The position numbers were made by a program, and so were the translations under genes. Positions 1,541 to 48,929 of a DNA stretch of 64,000 bases are shown piece by piece. The notes beneath the pieces were generated by a model that was not told where the DNA came from, did not search any database, and saw nothing but the letters and a program-made list of their open reading frames with translations. The stretch lies in the IMG/VR virus record IMGVR_UViG_3300031413_000586; one strand, written 5' to 3'. The DNA comes from an uncultured virus (IMG/VR IMGVR_UViG_3300031413_000586). Lineage: Duplodnaviria; Heunggongvirae; Uroviricota; Caudoviricetes. Within the stretch, counting starts at the first letter, position 1. Each line of letters starts with the position of its first letter.

Positions 1541-2971
1541 ATGAAAAACGTACCGTTTAAACGCATTCAACAAAAATTACAAAAAAGTGGAGTTCTCATT
1601 AATCGAGAGAATTCTAATGTACTCAGTATTACATCTACCAATGATGTGGGACTTGAATCAAAAATTCTATTACCTGATACTTTTGCCATTGAAGAGAAGG
1701 CTATTCATCAGTTATTGGATTTCGCTAAAATACAGCATCCAGATGGTGGGCATGTAAAATGTTCCTGTGCGACTCCTGACTTTCATACAGGCAGTACAAT
1801 TCCAGTAGGTAGTGTGGTAGTGACCAGTCACGATATGGTTATACCACAAGCCATTGGTACTGATATTAACTGTGGCATGCGATTACACAAACTTGATTTA
1901 ACATTTGATAGCTTTATGGCTAATAAAGAACTATGGGTTAAAAAGCTGAAAGGTGATTTATTGGAAGGAACCCGCAATATGCCAGTAACCCCATATGCTA
2001 TGAAAGCTCTATTTGATAATGGTATTGGAGATTTCTTTGAAGTTATGAAGAATTCCAAACAAGAAGGCATATTTGAAAAAATAGACTATGCTCAAATTAA
2101 ATTGGAAATGAGTAAACTGCATTCATCTGCTTTTGAAAAAGGCGAATCAAGTTATTCTCCTGATGCGTTACAAAACATGAGTCGTGATTTAATTCGCGAT
2201 CCATCAATGGGAACATTAGGAGGTGGTAATCATTTTTGTGAATTGCAGGTTGTTACCGAAATTACAGATAGACAGAAAGCCTATGAGCATGGATTGAAAG
2301 TCGGACAATTGGTTGTCATGATTCATACAGGTTCAAGAGATGTAGGTTTTTATGTAGGTCAACGTTGGGCTGATAAGGCCAAACAAATCTGGCCTAAAGG
2401 ACATAAGCATCCAGATAACAAAATATTTCCAATATATGGTGAGTTAGCGAATGAATACTTATTGGCAATGCACAGTGCTGCTCATTATGCTACTTTGAAC
2501 AGAGCCTTGATTGCTGAAATGGTACGTCAACGTACTATGGAAGTCTTTGGTCAAGTTGATTGTTCTTTGGTGGTAGATGTGCCACACAATATTGTATTAA
2601 AAGAAAAATTAGGCAATGTTCATCGTAAAGGAGCGACACCTGCTCATGCTGGTCAAGATCTGCTTATTCCGGGCAGTATGGGTCATGATAGTTATTTATT
2701 GTCTGGCTTGGGCAATGAAGATTGGCTAAGTTCTGCGAGTCATGGTGCTGGACGCAGTATTTCGCGTAATGAAATTTCTTTCAAAGGCCGTAAAGATAAA
2801 AGTCTATTGGGGCTTGATAGCGTTGAATGTATTACTCTGAAAGAAGAGCGAATGATTGAGGAAGCACCTGCAGCTTACAAGGAAATTGGACCAGTAATTC
2901 GCTCACAGGTTGAAGAAAAGACAATTTCAGTTATTGCCAAGTTTAGTCCGATATTAACCTTTAAAGCTTAA
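1541..2971 (+). CDS. rtcB: RtcB-family RNA ligase (3'-phosphate/2',3'-cyclic phosphate to 5'-OH)
   Basis: Motifs PDFHTG, IGTDINCGMR, GTLGGGNHFCE, IHTGSR, HN, HRKGAT, IPGSMG, SHGAGR, EEAPAAYK. Confidence 0.95.
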   Translation: MKNVPFKRIQQKLQKSGVLINRENSNVLSITSTNDVGLESKILLPDTFAIEEKAIHQLLDFAKIQHPDGGHVKCSCATPDFHTGSTIPVGSVVVTSHDMVIPQAIGTDINCGMRLHKLDLTFDSFMANKELWVKKLKGDLLEGTRNMPVTPYAMKALFDNGIGDFFEVMKNSKQEGIFEKIDYAQIKLEMSKLHSSAFEKGESSYSPDALQNMSRDLIRDPSMGTLGGGNHFCELQVVTEITDRQKAYEHGLKVGQLVVMIHTGSRDVGFYVGQRWADKAKQIWPKGHKHPDNKIFPIYGELANEYLLAMHSAAHYATLNRALIAEMVRQRTMEVFGQVDCSLVVDVPHNIVLKEKLGNVHRKGATPAHAGQDLLIPGSMGHDSYLLSGLGNEDWLSSASHGAGRSISRNEISFKGRKDKSLLGLDSVECITLKEERMIEEAPAAYKEIGPVIRSQVEEKTISVIAKFSPILTFKA

Positions 2972-37555: not shown

Positions 37556-37819
37556 ATGGATTTTTTTAAATTAGAAGTTTTGGGAGCCATTTTAAGTTAC
37601 AATTTAGCTAAAATGGAAAGCTATGATTCAAGAAGCAATGGATTTATTTTGTATACCACTGATATAAATGAATTGGATGCACTAACTTTGCATACTCAGT
37701 TAAGAAAATTAACTATATCTGTTAATAATACACTTCAAATAGTAAGAGGTATAAAAATTAAAGAAATTGATAAATCAAAGGGTAAAATAGTTATTGTACA
37801 TAACATTATTCTTCCATGA
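37556..37819 (+). CDS. hypothetical protein
   Basis: AAGGAG RBS. Confidence 0.65.
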   Translation: MDFFKLEVLGAILSYNLAKMESYDSRSNGFILYTTDINELDALTLHTQLRKLTISVNNTLQIVRGIKIKEIDKSKGKIVIVHNIILP

Positions 37820-37826
37820 TATAAAT

Positions 37827-37852
37827 AAAAAAAGCACACTGCTGTGTGCTTT
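37827..37852 (-). terminator. intrinsic terminator closing the tRNA array (possibly bidirectional)
   Basis: aaagcacac-tgct-gtgtgcttt hairpin with an A7 flank (U-tract on the minus strand). Confidence 0.75.
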
Positions 37853-37867
37853 CTATTTATTGTTTAT

Positions 37868-37972
37868 TGGTCATCAACGCCTGCATCCTAACCTTACTCC
37901 CGCAAGAGGTAGCTTCACCCACCGGCTACTTATTAGGCAGCATTTCTAAGGCTCCTACCAACCCATCGTAAC
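37868..37972 (-). ncRNA. putative structured RNA ending in CCA at the distal end of the tRNA array
   Basis: GC-rich non-coding block; stems CCTAA/TTAGG, GTAGC/GCTAC, CTC/GAG, GGTT/AGCC; 3' end GATGACCA. Confidence 0.5.
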
Positions 37973-37992
37973 TACTGGTTTAACACTAAATC

Positions 37993-38076
37993 TGGTGCGG
38001 AAAGTGGGACTCGAACCCACACGCCTTTCGGCACTGGCTTCTAAGACCAGCGTGTCTACCATTCCACCATTTCCGC
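37993..38076 (-). tRNA. tRNA-Leu(TAG)
   Basis: Cloverleaf, anticodon arm CTGGT-CTTAGAA-GCCAG, long variable arm, A73, encoded CCA. Confidence 0.95.
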
Positions 38077-38144
38077 ATGTATAATTTTCAATATATTCTA
38101 CAATCTACATGATTATAAGAGGTAATTAAAAATACTGTATGATA

Positions 38145-38229
38145 TGGTGCCTCCCGTGGGACTCGAACCCACACTCCTTTCGGAAACGGATTTTGAATCC
38201 GTCGCGTCTACCAATTCCGCCAGAGAGGC
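38145..38229 (-). tRNA. tRNA-Leu(CAA)
   Basis: ACGGA-TTCAAAA-TCCGT, long variable arm, ACCA. Confidence 0.95.
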
Positions 38230-38242
38230 ATAATTTTATTAA

Positions 38243-38485
38243 CTAATCCCAACTAGGTAGCATTAAATGAACGACAAGGCATTCATTTTTTAGATATTGA
38301 GGCATTTTGCTATCTTTACAAAAATAAAATGCTTCTACTAATCTATAAGCTTCTGTATTGCTCAGTGAATCTTTACGATCAAGTTTGTCTTTTAGTGGTT
38401 TAATAGCAATCACTGAAGGCTCGTCTTGAATTTTTTGTAAAACTTCTTTTGCCTTTTCGCCAATATCTTTCATATCTAGTTCCAT
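38243..38485 (-). CDS. hypothetical protein inside the tRNA array
   Basis: 80-aa ORF with GAGGG RBS. Confidence 0.7.
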   Translation of the reverse strand: MELDMKDIGEKAKEVLQKIQDEPSVIAIKPLKDKLDRKDSLSNTEAYRLVEAFYFCKDSKMPQYLKNECLVVHLMLPSWD

Positions 38486-38525
38486 AAAAATTCCCTCTGT
38501 GTAGCTAGATCTAATAACTATTATA

Positions 38526-38609
38526 TGGTGCCCGAGGTCGGACTCGAACCGACAAGCCTTTCGGCGGAAGATTTTAAGTCTTCTGTGTTTACCTTTTCAC
38601 CACTCGGGC
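38526..38609 (-). tRNA. tRNA-Leu(TAA)
   Basis: GAAGA-CTTAAAA-TCTTC, ACCA. Confidence 0.95.
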
Positions 38610-38615
38610 ATAACT

Positions 38616-38699
38616 TGGTGCGGTTAGTGGGACTTGAACCCACAATCCTTTCGGCACTGGCTTCTTAGACCAGCGTGTATACCATTCCACCACAACCGC
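38616..38699 (-). tRNA. tRNA-Leu(AAG)
   Basis: CTGGT-CTAAGAA-GCCAG, ACCA; A at position 34. Confidence 0.92.
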
Positions 38700-38720
38700 A
38701 TAAATCTTTTAATCTATAAA

Positions 38721-38804
38721 TGGTGCGGAAAGTGGGACTCGAACCCACACGCCTCTCGGCACTGGCTTCTAAGACCAGCGTGTCTACCATTCCACCATTT
38801 CCGC
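38721..38804 (-). tRNA. tRNA-Leu(TAG), near-identical to 37993..38076
   Basis: One difference, in the variable-arm loop (GAGA vs GAAA). Confidence 0.95.
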
Positions 38805-38811
38805 ATAGACA

Positions 38812-39156
38812 TTAATACTTCTTTTCAATATAATTTAAATCAACATTTTCAAATATAAAACCTATATTGTTATTCTTACAACAATTTACTACATCTTGAT
38901 AGTTTTCAAAATCATTGGCATCATAATCAGGAATAATATCTTCATGTTCATACAAATCAATTAAACTATAACTCAACTCAGTTTCATCCACACCCGCGAT
39001 GTCAGCCCATTCTTTTCGAATAGAACGTTTAAAAACATATTCAGTAAAATCTTCTTTATGTGGTTCTGCAACTAAATCACCATCAAGAAAAATATTCCAG
39101 TAACGATTGTCGTATAAATTAACGATAATAATTTTACCTTTAACTGATTTCGTCAT
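38812..39156 (-). CDS. hypothetical acidic protein inside the tRNA array
   Basis: AGGTGG RBS before ATG 39156; the ORF-track start runs into a tRNA. Confidence 0.7.
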   Translation of the reverse strand: MTKSVKGKIIIVNLYDNRYWNIFLDGDLVAEPHKEDFTEYVFKRSIRKEWADIAGVDETELSYSLIDLYEHEDIIPDYDANDFENYQDVVNCCKNNNIGFIFENVDLNYIEKKY

Positions 39157-39222
39157 GTTTAACCACCTTTGTAAGAAAATAAAACATAAAGCTAATTCGA
39201 ACTTTTGATATTGAATTAAATC

Positions 39223-39307
39223 TGGTCCCCGGAGCCGGACTCGAACCGGCACGGCTTTCGCCGGGAGATTTTAAGTCTCCTGTGTCTACCAATTCCACCA
39301 TCCGGGG
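39223..39307 (-). tRNA. tRNA-Leu(TAA)
   Basis: GGAGA-CTTAAAA-TCTCC; acceptor CCCCGGA/TCCGGGG, ACCA. Confidence 0.93.
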
Positions 39308-39325
39308 ATAAACACATATTAAATC

Positions 39326-39409
39326 TGGTGCGATTAGTGAGACTCGAACTCACAAGCCTTTCGGCACTAGCTTCTGAGACTAGCGTGTATACCATTCCAC
39401 CATAATCGC
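39326..39409 (-). tRNA. tRNA-Leu(CAG)
   Basis: CTAGT-CTCAGAA-GCTAG, ACCA. Confidence 0.95.
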
Positions 39410-39427
39410 ATAGTTACATCTATAATT

Positions 39428-39513
39428 TGGTGCAGAAGGCAGGATTCGAACCTACAAGTCTTGATGACACCTGCCTTAACGGCTGGCACATTTACCAATT
39501 CTGTTACTTCTGC
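39428..39513 (-). tRNA. aberrant Leu-type tRNA, loop CGTTAAG (nominal anticodon TTA)
   Basis: Acceptor GCAGAAG/CTTCTGC-ACCA, T arm GTAGG-TTCGAAT-CCTGC, long variable arm; anticodon stem CCAGC/GCAGG has an A.A mismatch; G33. Confidence 0.7.
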
Positions 39514-39521
39514 ATATAATT

Positions 39522-39605
39522 AATGAGAGAAGGGATTTGAACCCTCACGTCCTTTTGGACATGTCTTCGTTAAGACATTATGGCTACCAATTTCATCACT
39601 CTCAT
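39522..39605 (-). tRNA. aberrant Leu-type tRNA or pseudo-tRNA, no encoded CCA
   Basis: Acceptor ATGAGAG/CTCTCAT, T arm GAGGG-TTCAAAT-CCCTT, variable arm GTCC-AAAA-GGAC, anticodon arm ATGTC-TTAACGAA-GACAT (8-nt loop). Confidence 0.6.
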
Positions 39606-39699
39606 TACGGGTCTACTTTAATAATACTAGAATATAGCTTAATTAGTACGTTTTAAAGTTTCTAAAAGTCTTAGAGCGACCCAGTTTAACTTTTTAAAT

Positions 39700-39783
39700 T
39701 GGTGCGGATAGTGAGACTTGAACTCACACTTATTTCTAAAGCTGCTTTTGAGACAGCCGCGTCTACCTTTTCGCCACATCCGC
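39700..39783 (-). tRNA. tRNA-Leu(CAA)
   Basis: GCTGT-CTCAAAA-GCAGC, ACCA. Confidence 0.93.
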
Positions 39784-39829
39784 ATATTGTTTGTTTCTTT
39801 GAAGTCTTTCTTAACTCTTCATGTTGTAC

Positions 39830-39858
39830 ATTCTATCAAGTCTTTTTGTTGTTGTCAA
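39830..39858 (-). promoter_or_regulatory. sigma70-type promoter of the tRNA array
   Basis: TTGACA-17 nt-TAGAAT with extended TG; A-rich UP-like tract upstream. Confidence 0.75.
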
Positions 39859-39948
39859 CATTTATTTTGTATTATTTTATTTTATTTTCCTTTTAAATCA
39901 ATAGTTTAACTTATTTAAGATTGAACAGTACCCTAGACTTTCGCCCAT

Positions 39949-40054
39949 AAAAAAAGACCCTTTAGGGGTCCAGATGCGAAATAAGACGATTGTTACTTTT
40001 GGTCTGTTCTGCATCTGGACAATCTAGTTGTCCTAAAATGCAGACAAATAGATA
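39949..40054 (-). promoter_or_regulatory. attenuator: alternative protector / antiterminator / terminator hairpins
   Basis: Terminator GACCC-CTAAA-GGGTC-T7; GTCCAGATGC (40020-40011) is perfectly complementary to GCATCTGGAC (39977-39968), which overlaps the terminator 5' arm; protector TCTGCAT..GGACAA/TTGTCC..ATGCAGA (40044-40008). Confidence 0.75.
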
Positions 40055-40114
40055 CTAGCCCAAGCTAAATAGTGAGAGTAAGAGTAACAGTGATAATCGA
40101 ACAGTGGTGAACAT
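40055..40114 (-). CDS. Leu-rich leader peptide MFTTVRLSLLLLLSLFSLG (19 aa)
   Basis: GAGGA RBS, 8 Leu codons (5 consecutive), own promoter, followed by attenuator hairpins. Confidence 0.8.
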   Translation of the reverse strand: MFTTVRLSLLLLLSLFSLG

Positions 40115-40139
40115 TTTTTTCGTCCTCGTTAATATGCTT

Positions 40140-40168
40140 ATTTTATCAAATCTAGATTTCAAAGTCAA
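40140..40168 (-). promoter_or_regulatory. sigma70-type promoter of the leader peptide
   Basis: TTGACT-17 nt-TAAAAT with extended TG. Confidence 0.75.
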
Positions 40169-40169
40169 A

Positions 40170-40979
40170 TCATTCTTCGGGTACATTTTGACAAATTGCA
40201 CAATAATAAGTGCCACGTCCATTTTGTTTTATTTTGGTGACTGGGTGTTTGAGTTTATCAAACTTTTTTCCATAGACGTTAAAGTTGTCTTGAAAGCTGC
40301 CTTCTTGATCAAATGCATCTCTATAATCTGATATGGATGATCCGCCTTGTTGAATAGCTTTTTCTAAAATAGATTTTGTTTCGGCTACCAGTTGAGTGGC
40401 CTTTTCTTTTGTCAAATCTTGAGCCTTTGTCAAAGGGCTTATTTTACATATATACATCAGTTCAATCACATAGATATTGCCTAATCCAACTATATAGGAT
40501 TGGTCTAGTAGAAACTGTTTGATATTCTTTTTATTATTACGAGTCATGGCATAGAGAGTTTCAGGGTTAAAGTCGTTTGACAAAGGTTCTATGCCTAATT
40601 TTTTTATATATTTATTTTCATTTGCATTATCTTCATAAGTTACAAATCCAAATTTCCTGATGTCACTGTATATGAGAAATGTCCCATCTGTAAATTCGAT
40701 ACCAACTCGATTGAATTTATCTTCAATCAAATGATTTTGAATCAAAAACTTTCCAGTCATTCCTAAGTGGGCAACAATTTCACCTTTCGAAAGTTTGAAA
40801 ATAAGAAATTTCCCTCGACGAACAACATCAGTAACTGATTTATTGACTAATTGGTTTTCAAGATCCATTTGTACTGGTTCACGTAACCGATTGTTCCAGA
40901 TGGTTACTTTTTTTACCACCTTGTTTTTGATTCCGACTAATGAATTGACAACACATTGTACTTCTGGTAATTCTGGCAT
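40170..40979 (-). CDS. mutM: formamidopyrimidine-DNA glycosylase
   Basis: MPELPEV, RRGK, HLGMTG, D.RKFG, LLDQ..+.GLGNIY, R.TYYC..CQ (first half of the zinc finger degenerate). Confidence 0.95.
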   Translation of the reverse strand: MPELPEVQCVVNSLVGIKNKVVKKVTIWNNRLREPVQMDLENQLVNKSVTDVVRRGKFLIFKLSKGEIVAHLGMTGKFLIQNHLIEDKFNRVGIEFTDGTFLIYSDIRKFGFVTYEDNANENKYIKKLGIEPLSNDFNPETLYAMTRNNKKNIKQFLLDQSYIVGLGNIYVIELMYICKISPLTKAQDLTKEKATQLVAETKSILEKAIQQGGSSISDYRDAFDQEGSFQDNFNVYGKKFDKLKHPVTKIKQNGRGTYYCAICQNVPEE

Positions 40980-46559: not shown

Positions 46560-48929
46560 ATGAAGGTTGTATATTTTTTATCCGCTATGCCGGGAACAGG
46601 TAAATCTACATTTATTAGAGATAATGGTTTAGAGGCTCATACACTTTCTTTAGATACAATGAGACACGTATATGCAGGAGCGATTACTGATTATGATGGT
46701 AATCTTGTACTTTCTAATTCAAGAGAAGATTTCGTCTTTGGTAAATTCATGGAGGCACTTGATTCACGTTTACAGCTAGGTGGTACTTTATTCATTGATA
46801 ATTTAAATCCAGATCAAAAATCGATTGATAGCTATTTGGATATCATAAAAAAGTATGATTACGATTATAAGGTTATCAAGTTTCCACTACAGCATATTGA
46901 TTTTTATTACATGCGAAATCAACAAAGAGAACAATATAAACAGCTTCCTAAAGAAGCTATAGATAGAAATTACGTTACATTTACTGCTGCTAATTTTAAT
47001 AGCACAACAAAAATTGTAACTCCTGAGCAAGCCGTAAAGGAAATTTTTGCAAAAGCTGATGATTTATTGATTGATTTGAATCAATACAATAAGATTCATT
47101 TTATAGGAGATCTTCAAGGTTCTTTTTATCCTATTAAAAAATATTTTGAACAAGAAGGTGGTTTAAAGAAAAACGAATTTTATCTCTTTGTAGGTGATTA
47201 TATTGATCGTGGCATTGAAAATGATAAATGTTTTCATTTCATAAAAAAATATATGGAGTATGAAAACGTTCTATTATTGGCAGGTAATCATGAAAAGCAT
47301 TTATACAATTATAGCCATGAGTTGTACACCCCACCTGATGAGTTTATGCATAATACTCTACCTCAACTTATTAAGGCTGGTATAACCAGTGAGGATATGA
47401 AAAATGTCTATCGTCATTTAGAGCTATATAGTTTTATGCAATATGATGATAAGAAAATAATGGCAACTCATGCTGGGTTAACCGCTGTACCTGTATACCC
47501 TCGCCTATTGACTGCCGATGAATATATGAGAGGTTTTGGTCCTTACAGTTATGATGTTGATGGTAAATTTGAAGAAATGAATACAGATAACGAATGGTTT
47601 CAAGTTCATGGACATAGAAATCAGCATAAATTAGGATTTGAAAGTTATAAAAAAAGTTTTGCTCTAGAAGCCGATGTGGAATATGGTGGAAGTTTACCAG
47701 TGCTTAGATTGAACCGTGAAGGATTTAATGGTGTTTATATTACCAATAGTGTCTTTAACAAGGCGAAAGTGTTAAGTGACGAAAAAGAAAAAGATATGTT
47801 TGCTGTTAAAACAACTGAACATGGACTTTCAGAATTTTTATCCACAAAAATAAACCACATCAAGTCGGGTTTGGAAATTATTAAAGAATTGAGAGGCAAT
47901 CCTTCCATAAAAGAACAAGTGTCTGCTAATCTACCATATTTGTCAGCTTTTAATTTTACCGAAAATGTGGTTTCTGATACGAGATCGGATAAAGATCTAG
48001 TGGTACAAGCTCCGGGCTTGTTTATCAACAATCAGACAGGAGAAATTGTTGCTCGTGGTTTTGATAAATTGTTTAATATCAACGAAGCAGGCATTCAATC
48101 TGCAGCAATGGAAAATGTGAAATTAAATTTGAAAGGCAAGATAAGTTTATATGAAAAAGAAAATGGAACTCTTGGTATTATAGGCTATGATTCACAGTCC
48201 AATAATCTTGTTTACGCTTCCAAAGATTCTATTGATGGAGCATTCTCTGGTTATTTGAAAGAACTTGCATCAAAGCAATTTTCTTCAAGCGAATTACAAT
48301 TTATGCAAATATATGCAAATAAACATAATGTAAACTATTTATTTGAAGTTAATGATACTGCAAATGATCCTCATATTATTAAATATGATCAACCACATCT
48401 TGTGTTAATAGGTATTGTTAAACGCGATTTTAAATTTTCTCAATTAAAGATAGAACATTTAGAAAGTTTTGCGGCTAATTTTGAAAATTTAACAACGAAG
48501 AAAAGATTTGCTAATTTCACTACATCAGATAATTTTGAAAAATTTTATATGGCTGTTATGAAAGAAAGTGCTTTAACTACCAAGCGTCAATTAGAAGGAT
48601 ATATTTGCGAAGATGAGTCGTTGAATATGATTAAGATAACACTTCCTTATTACAACTTTTGGAAATGCATGGATGACTTTGCACAGGATATTAACAAAGG
48701 CATTGAAAAAGATAGTGCATTCAATATAGCTAAAAAAGTCAATACTACTTCTTTGATACAGGACTCTGATAAAGCTATTGCCATCAAATTCTTAGAATAT
48801 GTTAAAGAATTACCTACAAATAAAAAAGAGTATAGTATTATTGCATTAAGAGATGATTTTCTGGCTAATAATGAGGGTCTTATCAATTCAATTAATACTT
48901 TACCCAAGAAACCAAAAATGAAACCATAA
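46560..48929 (+). CDS. trifunctional RNA repair enzyme: polynucleotide kinase + metallophosphoesterase + Rnl1-like ligase
   Basis: P-loop AMPGTGKST; GDLQG, GDYIDRG, GNHE, THAG, VHGH; ligase RGFDKLFN, EKENG, FE, EGY. Confidence 0.88.
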   Translation: MKVVYFLSAMPGTGKSTFIRDNGLEAHTLSLDTMRHVYAGAITDYDGNLVLSNSREDFVFGKFMEALDSRLQLGGTLFIDNLNPDQKSIDSYLDIIKKYDYDYKVIKFPLQHIDFYYMRNQQREQYKQLPKEAIDRNYVTFTAANFNSTTKIVTPEQAVKEIFAKADDLLIDLNQYNKIHFIGDLQGSFYPIKKYFEQEGGLKKNEFYLFVGDYIDRGIENDKCFHFIKKYMEYENVLLLAGNHEKHLYNYSHELYTPPDEFMHNTLPQLIKAGITSEDMKNVYRHLELYSFMQYDDKKIMATHAGLTAVPVYPRLLTADEYMRGFGPYSYDVDGKFEEMNTDNEWFQVHGHRNQHKLGFESYKKSFALEADVEYGGSLPVLRLNREGFNGVYITNSVFNKAKVLSDEKEKDMFAVKTTEHGLSEFLSTKINHIKSGLEIIKELRGNPSIKEQVSANLPYLSAFNFTENVVSDTRSDKDLVVQAPGLFINNQTGEIVARGFDKLFNINEAGIQSAAMENVKLNLKGKISLYEKENGTLGIIGYDSQSNNLVYASKDSIDGAFSGYLKELASKQFSSSELQFMQIYANKHNVNYLFEVNDTANDPHIIKYDQPHLVLIGIVKRDFKFSQLKIEHLESFAANFENLTTKKRFANFTTSDNFEKFYMAVMKESALTTKRQLEGYICEDESLNMIKITLPYYNFWKCMDDFAQDINKGIEKDSAFNIAKKVNTTSLIQDSDKAIAIKFLEYVKELPTNKKEYSIIALRDDFLANNEGLINSINTLPKKPKMKP

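What the first reader, a model, noticed from the sequence alone, without database searches (positions are those of the whole stretch)
37827..40168. Leucine leader-peptide attenuator sitting directly upstream of an all-leucine tRNA array
Seen (minus strand): promoter TTGACT-17-TAAAAT, RBS GAGGA, then ATG TTC ACC ACT GTT CGA TTA TCA CTG TTA CTC TTA CTC TCA CTA TTT AGC TTG GGC TAG (40114-40055). That is 8 Leu codons, 5 in a row, sampling 5 of the 6 Leu codons. Downstream are mutually exclusive structures: a protector hairpin (40044-40008), a perfect 10-bp antiterminator GTCCAGATGC/GCATCTGGAC, and a terminator GACCC-CTAAA-GGGTC-T7. The Leu-codon run (TGTTACT, 40089-40083) can also pair with AGTAACA (39997-39991) inside the antiterminator loop, so a ribosome stalled on Leu codons should favour antitermination. 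The next genes are ten Leu-type tRNAs. Established: this is the architecture of leuL/ilvL/hisL ribosome-mediated attenuators, which normally control amino-acid biosynthesis or synthetase genes. Inference: a feedback circuit that senses loss of charged tRNA-Leu (starvation or host tRNA-cleaving defence) and boosts transcription of replacement tRNA-Leu genes. I know no described attenuator controlling a tRNA array. Caveats: the array has its own promoter (39830-39858), so read-through would be additive, and the protector lies 3' of the stop codon.
Basis: partly seen in the sequence, partly recalled or inferred. Interest (0 to 1): 0.95.

Follow-up and report, generated by a model that had tools for sequence, protein, structure and literature searches.

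The report
Leucine leader attenuator before tRNA-Leu array
A tiny leucine-rich test gene with a switchable transcription stop sits in front of a block of leucine tRNA genes on a very large uncultured phage-like element, and probably raises tRNA output when leucine codons are read slowly, a control so far described only for amino-acid and synthetase genes.

Summary
On the minus strand there is a sigma-70-type promoter, an SD, and a 19-codon ORF with 8 Leu codons, 5 of them consecutive. Three mutually exclusive hairpins follow, then a T7 terminator, a second promoter and a 10-gene tRNA array (8 Leu plus 2 aberrant Leu-like genes).

A segment just after the stop codon pairs with the protector's 5' arm, so the switch works as a multi-hairpin relay.

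Support:
- The whole cassette is 88% identical in a relative whose Fpg is only 67% identical, and it travels with the array, not with fpg.
- The same relative has a second array (Ala/Arg/Met) behind a leader ORF reading ...RARA....
- Its IleRS, AspRS and ProRS genes sit behind IIII, DNNDN and PLP leaders.
- Modelled terminator probability is 0.02-0.06 with a ribosome on the Leu run and 0.93 at the stop. Only 2 of 400 shuffles match this.

Limits: there is no covariation and no experiment, the geometry is sensitive to assumptions, and P2 lies downstream of the switch. I found no published account. This scan has already noted the same design on other DNA, including a relative.

The parts
40140..40168 (-). 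P1 promoter, TTGACT-17-TAAAAT with TG before the -10. Predicted transcription start is about 40133.
   Evidence: It is conserved in the relative, where homology starts exactly at the -35. An RNA-library contig ends at 40132.
40123..40127 (-). Shine-Dalgarno GAGGA, 8 nt before the ATG.
   Evidence: It is invariant in the relative. Most window genes carry GGAG-type motifs at this spacing.
40055..40114 (-). Leader ORF of 19 codons plus TAG, with 8 Leu codons (codons 7, 9-13, 15, 18).
   Evidence: The relative has 20 codons with 9 Leu covering all six Leu codons. The differences are synonymous or conservative changes plus one in-frame 3-nt indel.
40022..40053 (-). Anti-protector hairpin (segments 0:1). 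ATCTA and TTGTCT pair with GGACAA and TAGAT; -9.6 kcal/mol. Its 5' arm starts 2 nt after the stop codon.
   Evidence: All paired positions are identical in the relative.
40008..40044 (-). Protector hairpin (segments 1:2), -16.6 kcal/mol.
39968..40020 (-). Antiterminator (segments 2:3). A 10-bp core plus an extension; -20.2 kcal/mol. Its 3' arm overlaps the terminator's 5' arm.
   Evidence: The stems are conserved and the loop interior is not.
39949..39971 (-). Intrinsic terminator (segments 3:4): a 5-6 bp stem, a 5-nt loop and T7; -8.1 kcal/mol.
39930..39948 (-). A 19-nt block after the T-run, conserved in the relative. Its role is unknown.
   Evidence: The RNA-library contig ends at 39930.
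39830..39902 (-). P2 module: an A/T-rich upstream block plus TTGACA-17-TAGAAT.
   Evidence: The module occurs only at the three tRNA arrays of the window and the relative.
37993..39783 (-). tRNA array of ten genes. Eight are Leu (caa, cag, taa, tag, aag, taa, caa, tag). One is Leu-like and read as anticodon tta (39513-39428). One is tRNA-shaped without a normal anticodon loop (39606-39521). Two ORFs lie inside the array (39156-38812, 114 aa; 38485-38243, 80 aa).
   Evidence: The 114-aa ORF is 90% identical in the relative.
37829..37854 (-). Terminator closing the array. It is the only other minus-strand terminator-like site between 39955 and 37500.

Best explanation
This is a leader-peptide (ribosome-mediated) transcription attenuator specific for leucine. 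It decides whether RNA polymerase that started at P1 (or read in from fpg) runs on into the tRNA-Leu array.

The proposed working is inferred from sequence and folding.

1. The 19-codon leader is translated while the RNA is being made.
2. If Leu-tRNA is plentiful, the ribosome reaches the last codons or the stop codon. Its front edge then covers the segment just after the stop (40053-40042).
3. With that segment covered, the protector hairpin (40044-40008) forms. The antiterminator's 5' arm is locked up, the small terminator forms, and transcription ends at the T7.
4. If charged tRNA-Leu for any of the tested codons is short, the ribosome waits at Leu codons 7-15, and the post-stop segment stays free.
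5. That segment pairs with the protector's 5' arm. The protector's 3' arm is then free to pair with 39977-39968, which takes away the terminator's 5' arm.
6. Polymerase reads through P2 and adds to tRNA-Leu synthesis.

The design is a relay of five segments, like my recollection of the his operon leader. P2 supplies a basal level, so the attenuator would be an inducible top-up.
For: 1. All parts are present and correctly ordered.

2. Conservation and linkage. The only relative I could fetch (L087 = record G001, Fpg 67% identical) keeps P1, SD, ORF, all four helices, the T7 and P2 at 88% identity. A 237-aa gene on the other strand is inserted between fpg and P1, so the cassette goes with the array. 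ORF changes are synonymous, conservative or an in-frame 3-nt indel. Leu codons go from 8 to 9 and cover all six codons.

3. Modelled switch. Folding only the RNA 3' of the ribosome, terminator probability is 0.01-0.06 for A-site codons 1-17 in both the window and L087. At the stop codon it is 0.93 in the window and 0.83 in L087. Only 2 of 400 dinucleotide shuffles of the post-stop segment reach that difference, for each sequence. Energies: 0:1 plus 2:3 sum to -29.8, against 1:2 plus 3:4 at -24.7 kcal/mol.

4. Independent array. G001 has a second array (Ala-tgc x5, Ala-ggc, Arg-tct x2, Arg-cct, CAT x2, one odd). It sits behind TTGACT-17-TATAAT, an SD and the ORF MNIQLTIRARAIS, with codons AGA GCC AGA GCG. 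Hairpins, a 10-bp terminator with a T-run and the same P2 module follow. P(2 or more Arg) is 0.043 and P(2 or more Ala) is 0.10 in 12 codons.

5. Same grammar on known targets. In G001 the IleRS, non-discriminating AspRS and ProRS genes follow the leaders MKTLNTFVNSIIIIPKLPMS, MTIRFIADNNDNFAQLSVGLSVA and MKTNIALFKTIRPLPLMLGV, each with a terminator. The same model switches exactly at the D/N codons and at the Pro codons.

6. Uniqueness. This is the only SD-preceded ORF of 12-30 codons with at least 40% Leu among 738 in the window, and its homologue is the only one among 2165 in G001.

7. Rare codons. Rare Leu codons (CTC, CTA, CTG; 19% of usage) make up 4 of the 8 (p = 0.046).

8. RNA. A metatranscriptome run holds a 204-nt contig at 40132-39930 with 0 differences and nothing over 40157-40400.

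9. Gene signals in the window are bacterial: SD motifs and TATAAT boxes before most genes.
Against: - There is no covariation. Only two orthologous sequences exist, and every paired position of helices 0:1, 1:2 and 3:4 is invariant.
- The co-transcriptional minimum-energy path with the post-stop segment free still passes through the protector at transcript lengths 109-139. It flips to the antiterminated form only from length 145. Read-through therefore needs refolding within about 20 nt of synthesis.
- The switch depends on the assumed ribosome edge. P(terminator at stop) is 0.25, 0.27, 0.53, 0.77, 0.93, 0.66, 0.50, 0.41 and 0.11 for edges +8 to +16.
- With no ribosome the full window RNA gives terminator 0.66. 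In L087, if the 5' end is left free, the terminator stays at 0.90-0.97 for A-site codons 8-17.
- The Ala/Arg and IleRS leaders show no equilibrium switch; the terminator stays at 0.98-0.99 throughout.
- P2, the better promoter match, lies between the terminator and the tRNAs. Read-through may therefore add little.
- The RNA contig runs 19 nt past the T-run. It is an assembled contig without strand or end information, and DNA carry-over is not excluded.
- Passages of PMC1262725 recall that mutating the leader codons of S. coelicolor ilvB did not change regulation. Look-alikes can fail.
Confidence: 0.65

Rival explanations
1. It is an independent small gene. P1, the ORF and the terminator make a self-contained transcript of about 185-200 nt. 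That transcript would encode a 19-residue hydrophobic peptide (a membrane peptide or type-I-toxin-like product) or act as a small RNA, with no regulatory coupling to the array.
For: - The peptide is hydrophobic and conserved along its whole length.
- The terminated form can pair its SD with the antiterminator loop in both genomes. I recall this as a feature of some type I toxin mRNAs.
- The RNA-library contig covers just this unit.
Against: - No plus-strand promoter-like site lies in 39945-40170 for an antisense RNA.
- The sister leaders in the relative (RARA, IIII, DNNDN, PLP) are not hydrophobic, yet they have the same layout and match their downstream genes.
- The cassette stays attached to the array when its upstream neighbour changes.
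- Rare Leu codons are over-used.
Confidence: 0.12
2. It is a real conditional terminator with a different trigger or sign. For example, read-through could be favoured by efficient translation, or by a protein or tRNA binding to the leader, or the relay could sense overall translation rate rather than leucine.
For: - The outcome in the model depends on a few nucleotides of ribosome reach. At edge +16 the ribosome at the stop codon favours antitermination instead.
- The protector lies wholly outside the ORF.
- The equilibrium switch is absent in 2 of 6 leaders examined.
Against: - There is no Rfam match to T-box or any other riboregulator, even at E up to 10.
- Amino-acid matching between leader and downstream gene in all 6 leaders examined (5 independent units) is what codon-specific sensing predicts.
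Confidence: 0.13
3. It has no switch. The hairpin-T7 is an ordinary terminator that insulates the strong tRNA promoter P2 from fpg and P1 transcription, and the Leu-rich ORF and alternative pairings are fortuitous.
For: - fpg has no terminator of its own before P1.
- Terminators before genes are common in these genomes: 27 hits, mostly ends of upstream genes.
Against: - In the relative the upstream gene points away, yet P1, the ORF and the terminator are kept at 88% identity while flanking proteins are about 67% identical.
- The census of small ORFs and the shuffle test argue against chance.
Confidence: 0.06

Closest known systems
Leader-peptide attenuators of amino-acid operons (leu operon leader leuL, Rfam Leu_leader; his, trp, thr, ilv, pheA leaders)
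   Same: - Promoter, SD and a short ORF with a run of cognate codons, some of them rare.
- Mutually exclusive protector, antiterminator and terminator hairpins followed by a U-run.
- The ribosome's position chooses the fold.
- A multi-segment relay, as I recall for the his leader.
   Different: - The genes controlled are tRNA genes, not biosynthetic enzymes.
- There is no sequence or structure match to any Rfam leader family.
- The sensing segment lies after the stop codon.
- A second promoter sits between the terminator and the target.
- The element is on a huge phage-like replicon.
Leader-peptide attenuators of aminoacyl-tRNA synthetase genes (E. coli pheST with pheM; predicted Streptomyces leuS and trpS, PMC1262725 passages; Bacillus hisS paralogues, PMC2965389 passages)
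   Same: - The signal is the supply of charged cognate tRNA and the target is part of the translation apparatus.
- The relative G001 has this very type before its IleRS, AspRS and ProRS genes.
   Different: Here the product is the tRNA itself. The loop therefore closes on tRNA abundance rather than on charging capacity.
T-box leaders
   Same: A conditional terminator that reports the state of one tRNA species and controls translation-related genes.
   Different: T-boxes bind uncharged tRNA directly and have no translated ORF. No T-box match was found at the gathering threshold or at E up to 10.
Phage tRNA arrays as codon supplements or counter-defence (PMC10264068 and PMC11464382; search listings and starts of abstracts only)
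   Same: - A large block of tRNA genes on a mobile or viral replicon.
- Aberrant anticodon loops among them.
- RNA-repair genes nearby: RtcB and a Pnkp-like ligase.
   Different: Neither listing or abstract mentions regulation by a leader peptide, and I did not read their full texts. This array is single-isotype.
Earlier notes of this scan (e1-5772520 in a look-alike genome; e1-5338963, e1-5836933, e1-2978539 and others)
   Same: Codon-matched leader ORF plus terminator in front of tRNA arrays of large phages or mobile elements. One note describes an 11-gene all-Leu operon that shares short words with this stretch.
   Different: They are unchecked AI notes on other DNA. I did not see their sequences, and they are not independent evidence.

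Membership tests
Ribosome-mediated leader-peptide transcription attenuator (mechanistic class) | Promoter-proximal short ORF with SD and start codon in the leader transcript | tested here: met
   P1 at 40168-40140, GAGGA 8 nt before the ATG, and the ORF at 40114-40055.
Ribosome-mediated leader-peptide transcription attenuator (mechanistic class) | Enrichment or run of codons cognate to the controlled product | tested here: met
   8 of 19 codons are Leu, 5 of them consecutive. p = 1e-4, and it is the only such SD-preceded small ORF among 738. Array anticodons cover the codons used.
Ribosome-mediated leader-peptide transcription attenuator (mechanistic class) | Intrinsic terminator between the leader ORF and the controlled genes | tested here: met
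   39971-39949: a 6-pair stem with 4 GC pairs, then T7. No other minus-strand terminator-like site lies before the array's end.
Ribosome-mediated leader-peptide transcription attenuator (mechanistic class) | Antiterminator mutually exclusive with the terminator, and a protector mutually exclusive with the antiterminator | tested here: met
   Helices 1:2, 2:3 and 3:4 share arms. Energies are -16.6, -20.2 and -8.1 kcal/mol.
Ribosome-mediated leader-peptide transcription attenuator (mechanistic class) | Geometry such that a ribosome stalled on the regulatory codons favours read-through and one at the stop codon favours termination | tested here: inconclusive
   The equilibrium model gives 0.02-0.06 against 0.93, and 2 of 400 shuffles match. 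The result varies with the assumed ribosome edge, and the co-transcriptional path needs refolding.
Ribosome-mediated leader-peptide transcription attenuator (mechanistic class) | Conservation of ORF, helices and linkage to the target in relatives | tested here: met
   One relative only. It shows 88% identity and the frame is kept by a 3-nt indel. Linkage to the array is kept although the upstream neighbour changed. No compensatory changes were available.
Ribosome-mediated leader-peptide transcription attenuator (mechanistic class) | Read-through responds to supply of the charged cognate tRNA | not testable with these tools
   This needs Term-seq, reporters or in vitro coupled transcription-translation.
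Enterobacterial leu operon leader (Rfam Leu_leader) | Match to the family's covariance model | tested here: not met
   No Rfam hit other than tRNA at the gathering score. Only three chance-level hits (E 1.8-4.4, to unrelated eukaryotic RNA families) appear in 39780-40200 at E up to 10.
T-box leader | Match to the T-box model (specifier loop and T-box bulge) | tested here: not met
   no match.
Type I toxin-antitoxin locus | Small hydrophobic peptide plus an overlapping or adjacent antisense RNA gene | tested here: not met
   The peptide is hydrophobic. No plus-strand promoter-like site lies in 39945-40170. Sister leaders of the same layout are not hydrophobic.

The most novel reading that the evidence does not exclude
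This giant AT-rich replicon and its relatives may run their whole imported translation kit as a set of separate codon-speed regulons. Each isotype-sorted tRNA array and each synthetase gene would have its own leader peptide written in the codons it serves. The element could then detect which codons are being decoded slowly in the current host, through codon mismatch, starvation or a host anticodon nuclease. It would answer by making just those tRNAs or enzymes. Under this reading the RNA-repair genes and the anticodon-loop-less tRNA-like genes belong to the same counter-measure.
Probability: 0.35. Interest if true: 0.9.

Novelty: new variant of a known kind. Interest (0 to 1): 0.8.

Why it matters
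Attenuation by a leader peptide is textbook for amino-acid operons and is known or predicted for a few synthetase genes. In five full-text searches I found no account of it controlling tRNA genes.

If it works as inferred, tRNA supply on a mobile or viral replicon is not merely constitutive. It would be fed back from decoding speed, codon family by codon family. That would:
- explain why such arrays are sorted by amino acid;
- offer a direct, testable sensor of tRNA depletion during infection;
- provide compact parts (about 190 nt) for codon-specific biosensors.

The same lineage offers internal controls for experiments: its Ile, Asp/Asn and Pro synthetase leaders.

Tried and rejected
1. I rejected it as the sensing contact.

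2. A giant virus of eukaryotes fits the gene content and the 30% GC. I rejected it because most genes carry SD motifs and TATAAT boxes. The NCLDV capsid search of G001 found nothing, but its controls were silent too, so that search says nothing.

3. I recalled a precedent of a Phe leader before E. coli tRNA-Phe genes. This was not confirmed.
   - The 105 nt before pheV in K-12 hold no such ORF.
   - Passages of PMC7049720 give a 3-4 nt leader.
   - Searches gave nothing useful, and PMC3082878 was irrelevant.

4. Search for more relatives.
   - Four IMG/VR scans returned only the one record.
   - The GTDB scan with a single protein and the metagenome scan gave only 32-39% Fpg relatives without bearing.
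   - The phage collection gave only tRNA matches, or Fpg below 40%.

5. Raw RNA reads of run X22: 0 reads laid, so no test.

6. Whether the CAT-anticodon tRNAs of the second array read ATA is inconclusive. Of the 12 listed phage look-alikes of the first CAT tRNA, 6 are labelled Met, 4 Lys, 1 Ile and 1 is unannotated. The second CAT tRNA gave only 2 matches.

7. The window's deaminase as a tRNA A34 deaminase: rejected, because it is ComEB/dCMP-deaminase-like.

8. A fold stopped before the terminator's 3' arm did not separate the stalled and stop states well (0.60-0.64 against 0.42-0.49). I dropped it as a score. It did reveal the relay helices of the Ala/Arg leader.

9. A generic scan for terminators before genes (27 hits) re-found the AspRS and ProRS leaders. 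It missed IleRS (no perfect stem under its rule) and cannot see tRNA targets. No further cognate leader appeared in the window.


Full report
**1. Observation**

All features lie on the minus strand. They run in this order:
- fpg ends at 40170.
- P1 is TTGACT-17-TAAAAT at 40168-40140, with TG before the -10 (10 of 12).
- GAGGA is at 40127-40123, and the ATG is at 40114.
- The ORF of 19 codons ends with TAG at 40057-40055.
- The peptide is MFTTVRLSLLLLLSLFSLG. Its Leu codons are TTA x3, CTC x2, CTG, CTA and TTG.
- A protector hairpin lies at 40044-40008.
- A perfect 10-bp pairing joins 40020-40011 with 39977-39968.
- A GACCC/GGGTC hairpin with T7 lies at 39971-39949.
- P2 is TTGACA-17-TAGAAT at 39858-39830 (11 of 12).
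- Ten tRNA-type genes occupy 39783-37993.
- A strong terminator closes the array at 37854-37829.

Eight of the ten genes carry Leu anticodons (caa, cag, taa, tag, aag, taa, caa, tag). One long-arm gene is read as anticodon tta with G at position 33. One has a closed stem in place of a normal anticodon loop and is the only one that misses Rfam's tRNA threshold.

**2. What kind of DNA this is**

- The window is about 30% GC, and no whole genome is held for it.
- Its Fpg protein lies on a contig of 604,313 bases. Proteins 67-72% identical lie on contigs of up to 1.84 Mb.
- Most genes have GGAG-type SD motifs and TATAAT boxes, so expression is bacterial in style.
- Recognisable genes include RtcB, UvdE, GAPDH, asparagine synthase, a NadR-like protein, thioredoxin reductase, nucleoside deoxyribosyltransferase, Fpg, a Pnkp-like kinase-phosphatase-RNA ligase, a ClpA/B-like ATPase and transporters.
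- 23 of the 46 window ORFs scanned have no Pfam family.
- No capsid, portal or terminase family appeared among 43 window and 95 relative ORFs against PHROGs, or among 46 and 126 against Pfam.
- IMG/VR files the one relative I could fetch as a provirus, 58% complete by CheckV.

I therefore call it a very large phage-like or mobile replicon of a bacterium, type unresolved.

Near-identical DNA is held by phyllosphere, leaf, plant, seed and dairy metagenome runs. Of these I laid only four runs.

**3. The relative**

An Fpg alignment found locus L087 in IMG/VR, with Fpg 67% identical. I fetched its whole 181,270-base record (G001). It is collinear with the window over all 64 kb.

In L087, fpg has its own terminator. 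It is followed by a 237-aa gene on the other strand. Homology to the window then resumes exactly at the -35 of P1.

P1, SD, ORF, all helices, the T7, a 19-nt block after it, and P2 are kept. Column identity is 88% over about 400 nt. Thirteen tRNA genes follow: 11 Leu, 1 Gln and 1 odd.

The ORF becomes MFTTIRLSLLLLSSLLLSLG. The changes are one synonymous Thr change, V to I, one synonymous Leu change, L to S, and F to LL through a 3-nt insertion. It has 9 Leu codons that now include all six codon types.

The unit that is conserved and that moves is therefore leader plus array.

**4. Structure and a corrected mechanism**

Positions are counted as n from the A of the ATG, so coordinate = 40115 - n. 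Five segments matter.

| Element | n | Coordinates | Energy (kcal/mol) |
|---|---|---|---|
| Segment 0 (starts 2 nt after the stop codon) | 62-73 | 40053-40042 | - |
| Hairpin 0:1 (segment 0 pairs with GGACAA and TAGAT of segment 1) | 62-93 | 40053-40022 | -9.6 |
| Protector 1:2 | 71-107 | 40044-40008 | -16.6 |
| Antiterminator 2:3 | 95-147 | 40020-39968 | -20.2 |
| Terminator 3:4 | 144-160 | 39971-39955 | -8.1 |

With segment 0 free, 0:1 plus 2:3 (-29.8) beats 1:2 plus 3:4 (-24.7). With segment 0 covered, the order reverses.

I folded only the RNA 3' of a ribosome whose front edge is 12 nt past the first A-site base.
- Window: terminator probability is 0.01-0.05 for A-site codons 1-17, 0.20 and 0.27 at Leu18 and Gly19, and 0.93 at the stop codon.
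- L087: 0.01-0.06 for codons 1-18, then 0.13 and 0.23, and 0.83 at the stop codon.
- Shuffling the post-stop segment while keeping dinucleotides, 2 of 400 shuffles reach the observed difference, for each sequence. The two sequences are not independent.
- The result holds from 20 to 37 C.

The ribosome does not mask the protector. It masks the protector's competitor. As I recall it, this is the relay logic of the his leader; I did not check that against a paper.

**5. Weak points of the model**

- The outcome at the stop codon depends on the assumed ribosome reach. It is 0.25 at +8, 0.93 at +12, 0.41 at +15 and 0.11 at +16.
- With segment 0 free, the minimum-energy fold of growing transcripts is still the protector between lengths 109 and 139. 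It changes to 0:1 plus 2:3 only from 145. Read-through therefore needs a quick refolding or a polymerase pause.
- When the whole 5' part is allowed to fold, L087 keeps the terminator at 0.90-0.97 for A-site codons 8-17. The cause is that its SD region pairs with the 3' part of the antiterminator loop. A weaker version of that pairing exists in the window.
- That pairing may shut off translation of finished, terminated leaders. This is inference.
- No paired position differs between the two sequences, so there is no covariation evidence.

**6. Independent tests of the idea**

(a) *Second array.* G001 has an array at 156104-158247 with Ala-tgc x5, Ala-ggc, Arg-tct x2, Arg-cct, two CAT-anticodon tRNAs and one odd gene. 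Upstream lie TTGACT-17-TATAAT, AGGA and the ORF MNIQLTIRARAIS, with codons AGA GCC AGA GCG. Two hairpins follow, then a 10-bp terminator with a T-run, then the same P2 module as at the Leu arrays.
- The chance of 2 or more Arg in 12 codons is 0.043, and of 2 or more Ala 0.10.
- The P2 module occurs nowhere else in the window or G001, apart from weak 3-mismatch hits inside genes.
- This leader shows no equilibrium switch; the terminator stays at 0.98.
- A fold stopped before the terminator's 3' arm shows the same relay. A post-stop segment pairs with the protector's 5' arm and frees ACCCTC to pair with GAGGGT in the terminator's 5' arm. This happens for A-site codons 5-11 but not at the stop codon.

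(b) *Synthetase genes.* In G001 the IleRS, non-discriminating AspRS and a short ProRS are each preceded by a promoter, a small ORF and a terminator. The ORFs are MKTLNTFVNSIIIIPKLPMS, MTIRFIADNNDNFAQLSVGLSVA and MKTNIALFKTIRPLPLMLGV. Under the same ribosome-mask model:
- AspRS: terminator 0.04-0.33 with codons 7-12 (ADNNDN) in the A site, and 0.99-1.00 from codon 13 on.
- ProRS: 0.00-0.01 up to codon 14, and 0.91-0.93 from Pro15 on.
- IleRS: no switch, 0.87-0.99 throughout.

Overall, 6 of 6 leaders examined (5 independent units) are enriched in the cognate residues. The ProRS case is weak, with 2 Pro in 20. Four of 6 show an equilibrium switch.

(c) *Census of small ORFs.* Among 738 ATG-started ORFs of 12-30 codons in the window, 2 have at least 40% Leu, and only the leader also has an SD-like motif or a run of 5 or more Leu. 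In G001 the figures are 2165, 10 and 1, and that one is the homologous leader.

(d) *Codon choice.* Window genes (35 ORFs, 12,790 codons) use the Leu codons as follows.

| Codon | TTA | TTG | CTT | CTA | CTG | CTC |
|---|---|---|---|---|---|---|
| Share | 34% | 27% | 20% | 10% | 6% | 3% |

The leader takes 4 of its 8 Leu codons from the three rare ones (p = 0.046), including CTC twice (p = 0.024).

**7. RNA**

I laid two metatranscriptome runs, one raw RNA run and one run of unknown kind on 37700-40400.
- Run X15 (RNA, assembled contigs) has a 204-nt contig at 39930-40132 with 0 differences. One end is 1 nt from the start predicted from P1. The other end is the last base of the conserved block after the T-run.
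- X15 has no cover over 40157-40400 or 39338-39883.
- Run X16 (RNA) has a 219-nt contig at 39586-39804 with 0 differences, at the head of the array.
- The raw-read run gave no reads.
- These are contigs without strand or true ends. DNA carry-over is possible, and the X15 contig extends 19 nt past the T-run.

I take this only as a hint that the leader is a transcription unit separate from fpg.

**8. Rival readings**

- *A free-standing small hydrophobic peptide or type-I-toxin-like gene* fits the peptide and the SD-sequestering fold. However, no antisense promoter-like site lies in 39945-40170. The sister leaders of the same layout are not hydrophobic and match their targets.
- *A conditional terminator with another trigger or sign* is not excluded, given the sensitivity. 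There is no Rfam match to T-box or any riboregulator.
- *A plain insulating terminator with a chance ORF* is unlikely. The cassette is conserved above its neighbours and persists where the upstream gene points away.

**9. What is known**

- Passages of PMC1262725 and PMC2965389 show that classical attenuators are known or predicted before synthetase genes: pheST, Streptomyces leuS and trpS, and Bacillus hisS paralogues.
- PMC1262725 also warns that the S. coelicolor ilvB leader did not behave as an attenuator when mutated.
- Five full-text searches joined leader peptide or attenuation with tRNA array, operon, cluster or phage tRNA. They found no paper describing such control of tRNA genes.
- In the listed hits the tRNA term was absent or unrelated: none of the listed papers held the tRNA term at all. 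I did not consult supplements.
- A recalled precedent at E. coli pheU/pheV was checked and not confirmed.
- For PMC10264068, PMC11464382 and PMC7162821 I saw only search listings and the starts of abstracts.
- This scan has recorded the same design before on other DNA. One note concerns an 11-gene all-Leu operon in a look-alike genome (e1-5772520), and several concern large phages. These are unchecked notes that I reached after forming my reading. They agree with it but are not independent evidence.

**10. Verdict**

It is a new variant of a known kind: the classical leader-peptide attenuator applied to tRNA genes on a huge mobile or viral replicon. It appears to be part of a wider set of codon-matched leaders that also covers that lineage's synthetase genes. 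Confidence in the mechanism is about 0.65. What is missing is covariation from more relatives and any direct measurement of read-through.

Noticed in passing
window 39521-39606 (-); L087:8232-8317: A tRNA-shaped, long-arm gene whose anticodon arm is a closed 6-7 bp stem with a 4-6 nt loop and no CCA at its 3' end (read by eye). It keeps the second place in both Leu arrays and misses Rfam's tRNA threshold. It could be a decoy, a processing element or a decayed tRNA.
   Followed up: partly
window 39428-39513 (-): A Leu-like long-arm tRNA read by ARAGORN as anticodon tta (it would read TAA). Its loop is CGTTAAG with G at position 33. It may be a mutated Leu-taa gene rather than a suppressor. ORFs in the window are intact under code 11.
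   Followed up: partly
window 38812-39156 (-) and 38243-38485 (-): Two ORFs sit inside the tRNA array. The 114-aa one is 90% identical in the relative and has 12 clusters of 68-90% identity in metagenomes, nearly all exactly 114 aa. It has no Pfam or PHROG family.
   Followed up: partly
G001 156104-158247 (L138:16104-18247), leader at L138:15734-15925: A second array, sorted by isotype (Ala/Arg/CAT), in the relative. It sits behind a leader ORF reading ...RARA... and the same P2 module.
   Followed up: yes
G001: L136:16383-16445 (-), L131:6675-6746 (-), L134:2223-2285 (+): Leader ORFs with IIII, DNNDN and PLP, each with a terminator, lie before the IleRS, non-discriminating AspRS and short ProRS genes of the relative. 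The window lacks these three genes at the syntenic places.
   Followed up: yes
window 1541-2971, 46560-48929; G001 161057-161509: An RNA-repair set: RtcB, a Pnkp-like kinase-phosphatase-ligase, and a HAD domain of 'Swiss Army Knife' RNA repair proteins. The two window genes lie in the same 64-kb window as the array, about 7 kb and 35 kb from it.
   Followed up: no
whole window; The type of replicon is unresolved. The window's contig is 604 kb, close relatives' proteins lie on contigs up to 1.86 Mb, and IMG/VR calls the relative a provirus. No capsid, portal or terminase was seen in about 245 kb. If it is viral, the size would be exceptional.
   Followed up: partly
G001 103613-109381 (L136:3613-9381, -): Seven consecutive same-strand ORFs of 248-285 aa have no Pfam family. 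Of the two among them that I also scanned against PHROGs, neither had a family. I did not test whether they are paralogues.
   Followed up: no
window 39930-39948 (-): A 19-nt block directly after the leader's T-run is conserved in the relative (18 of 19). It coincides with the end of the RNA-library contig. It might be a processing site or part of an alternative fold with the terminator's 5' arm.
   Followed up: no
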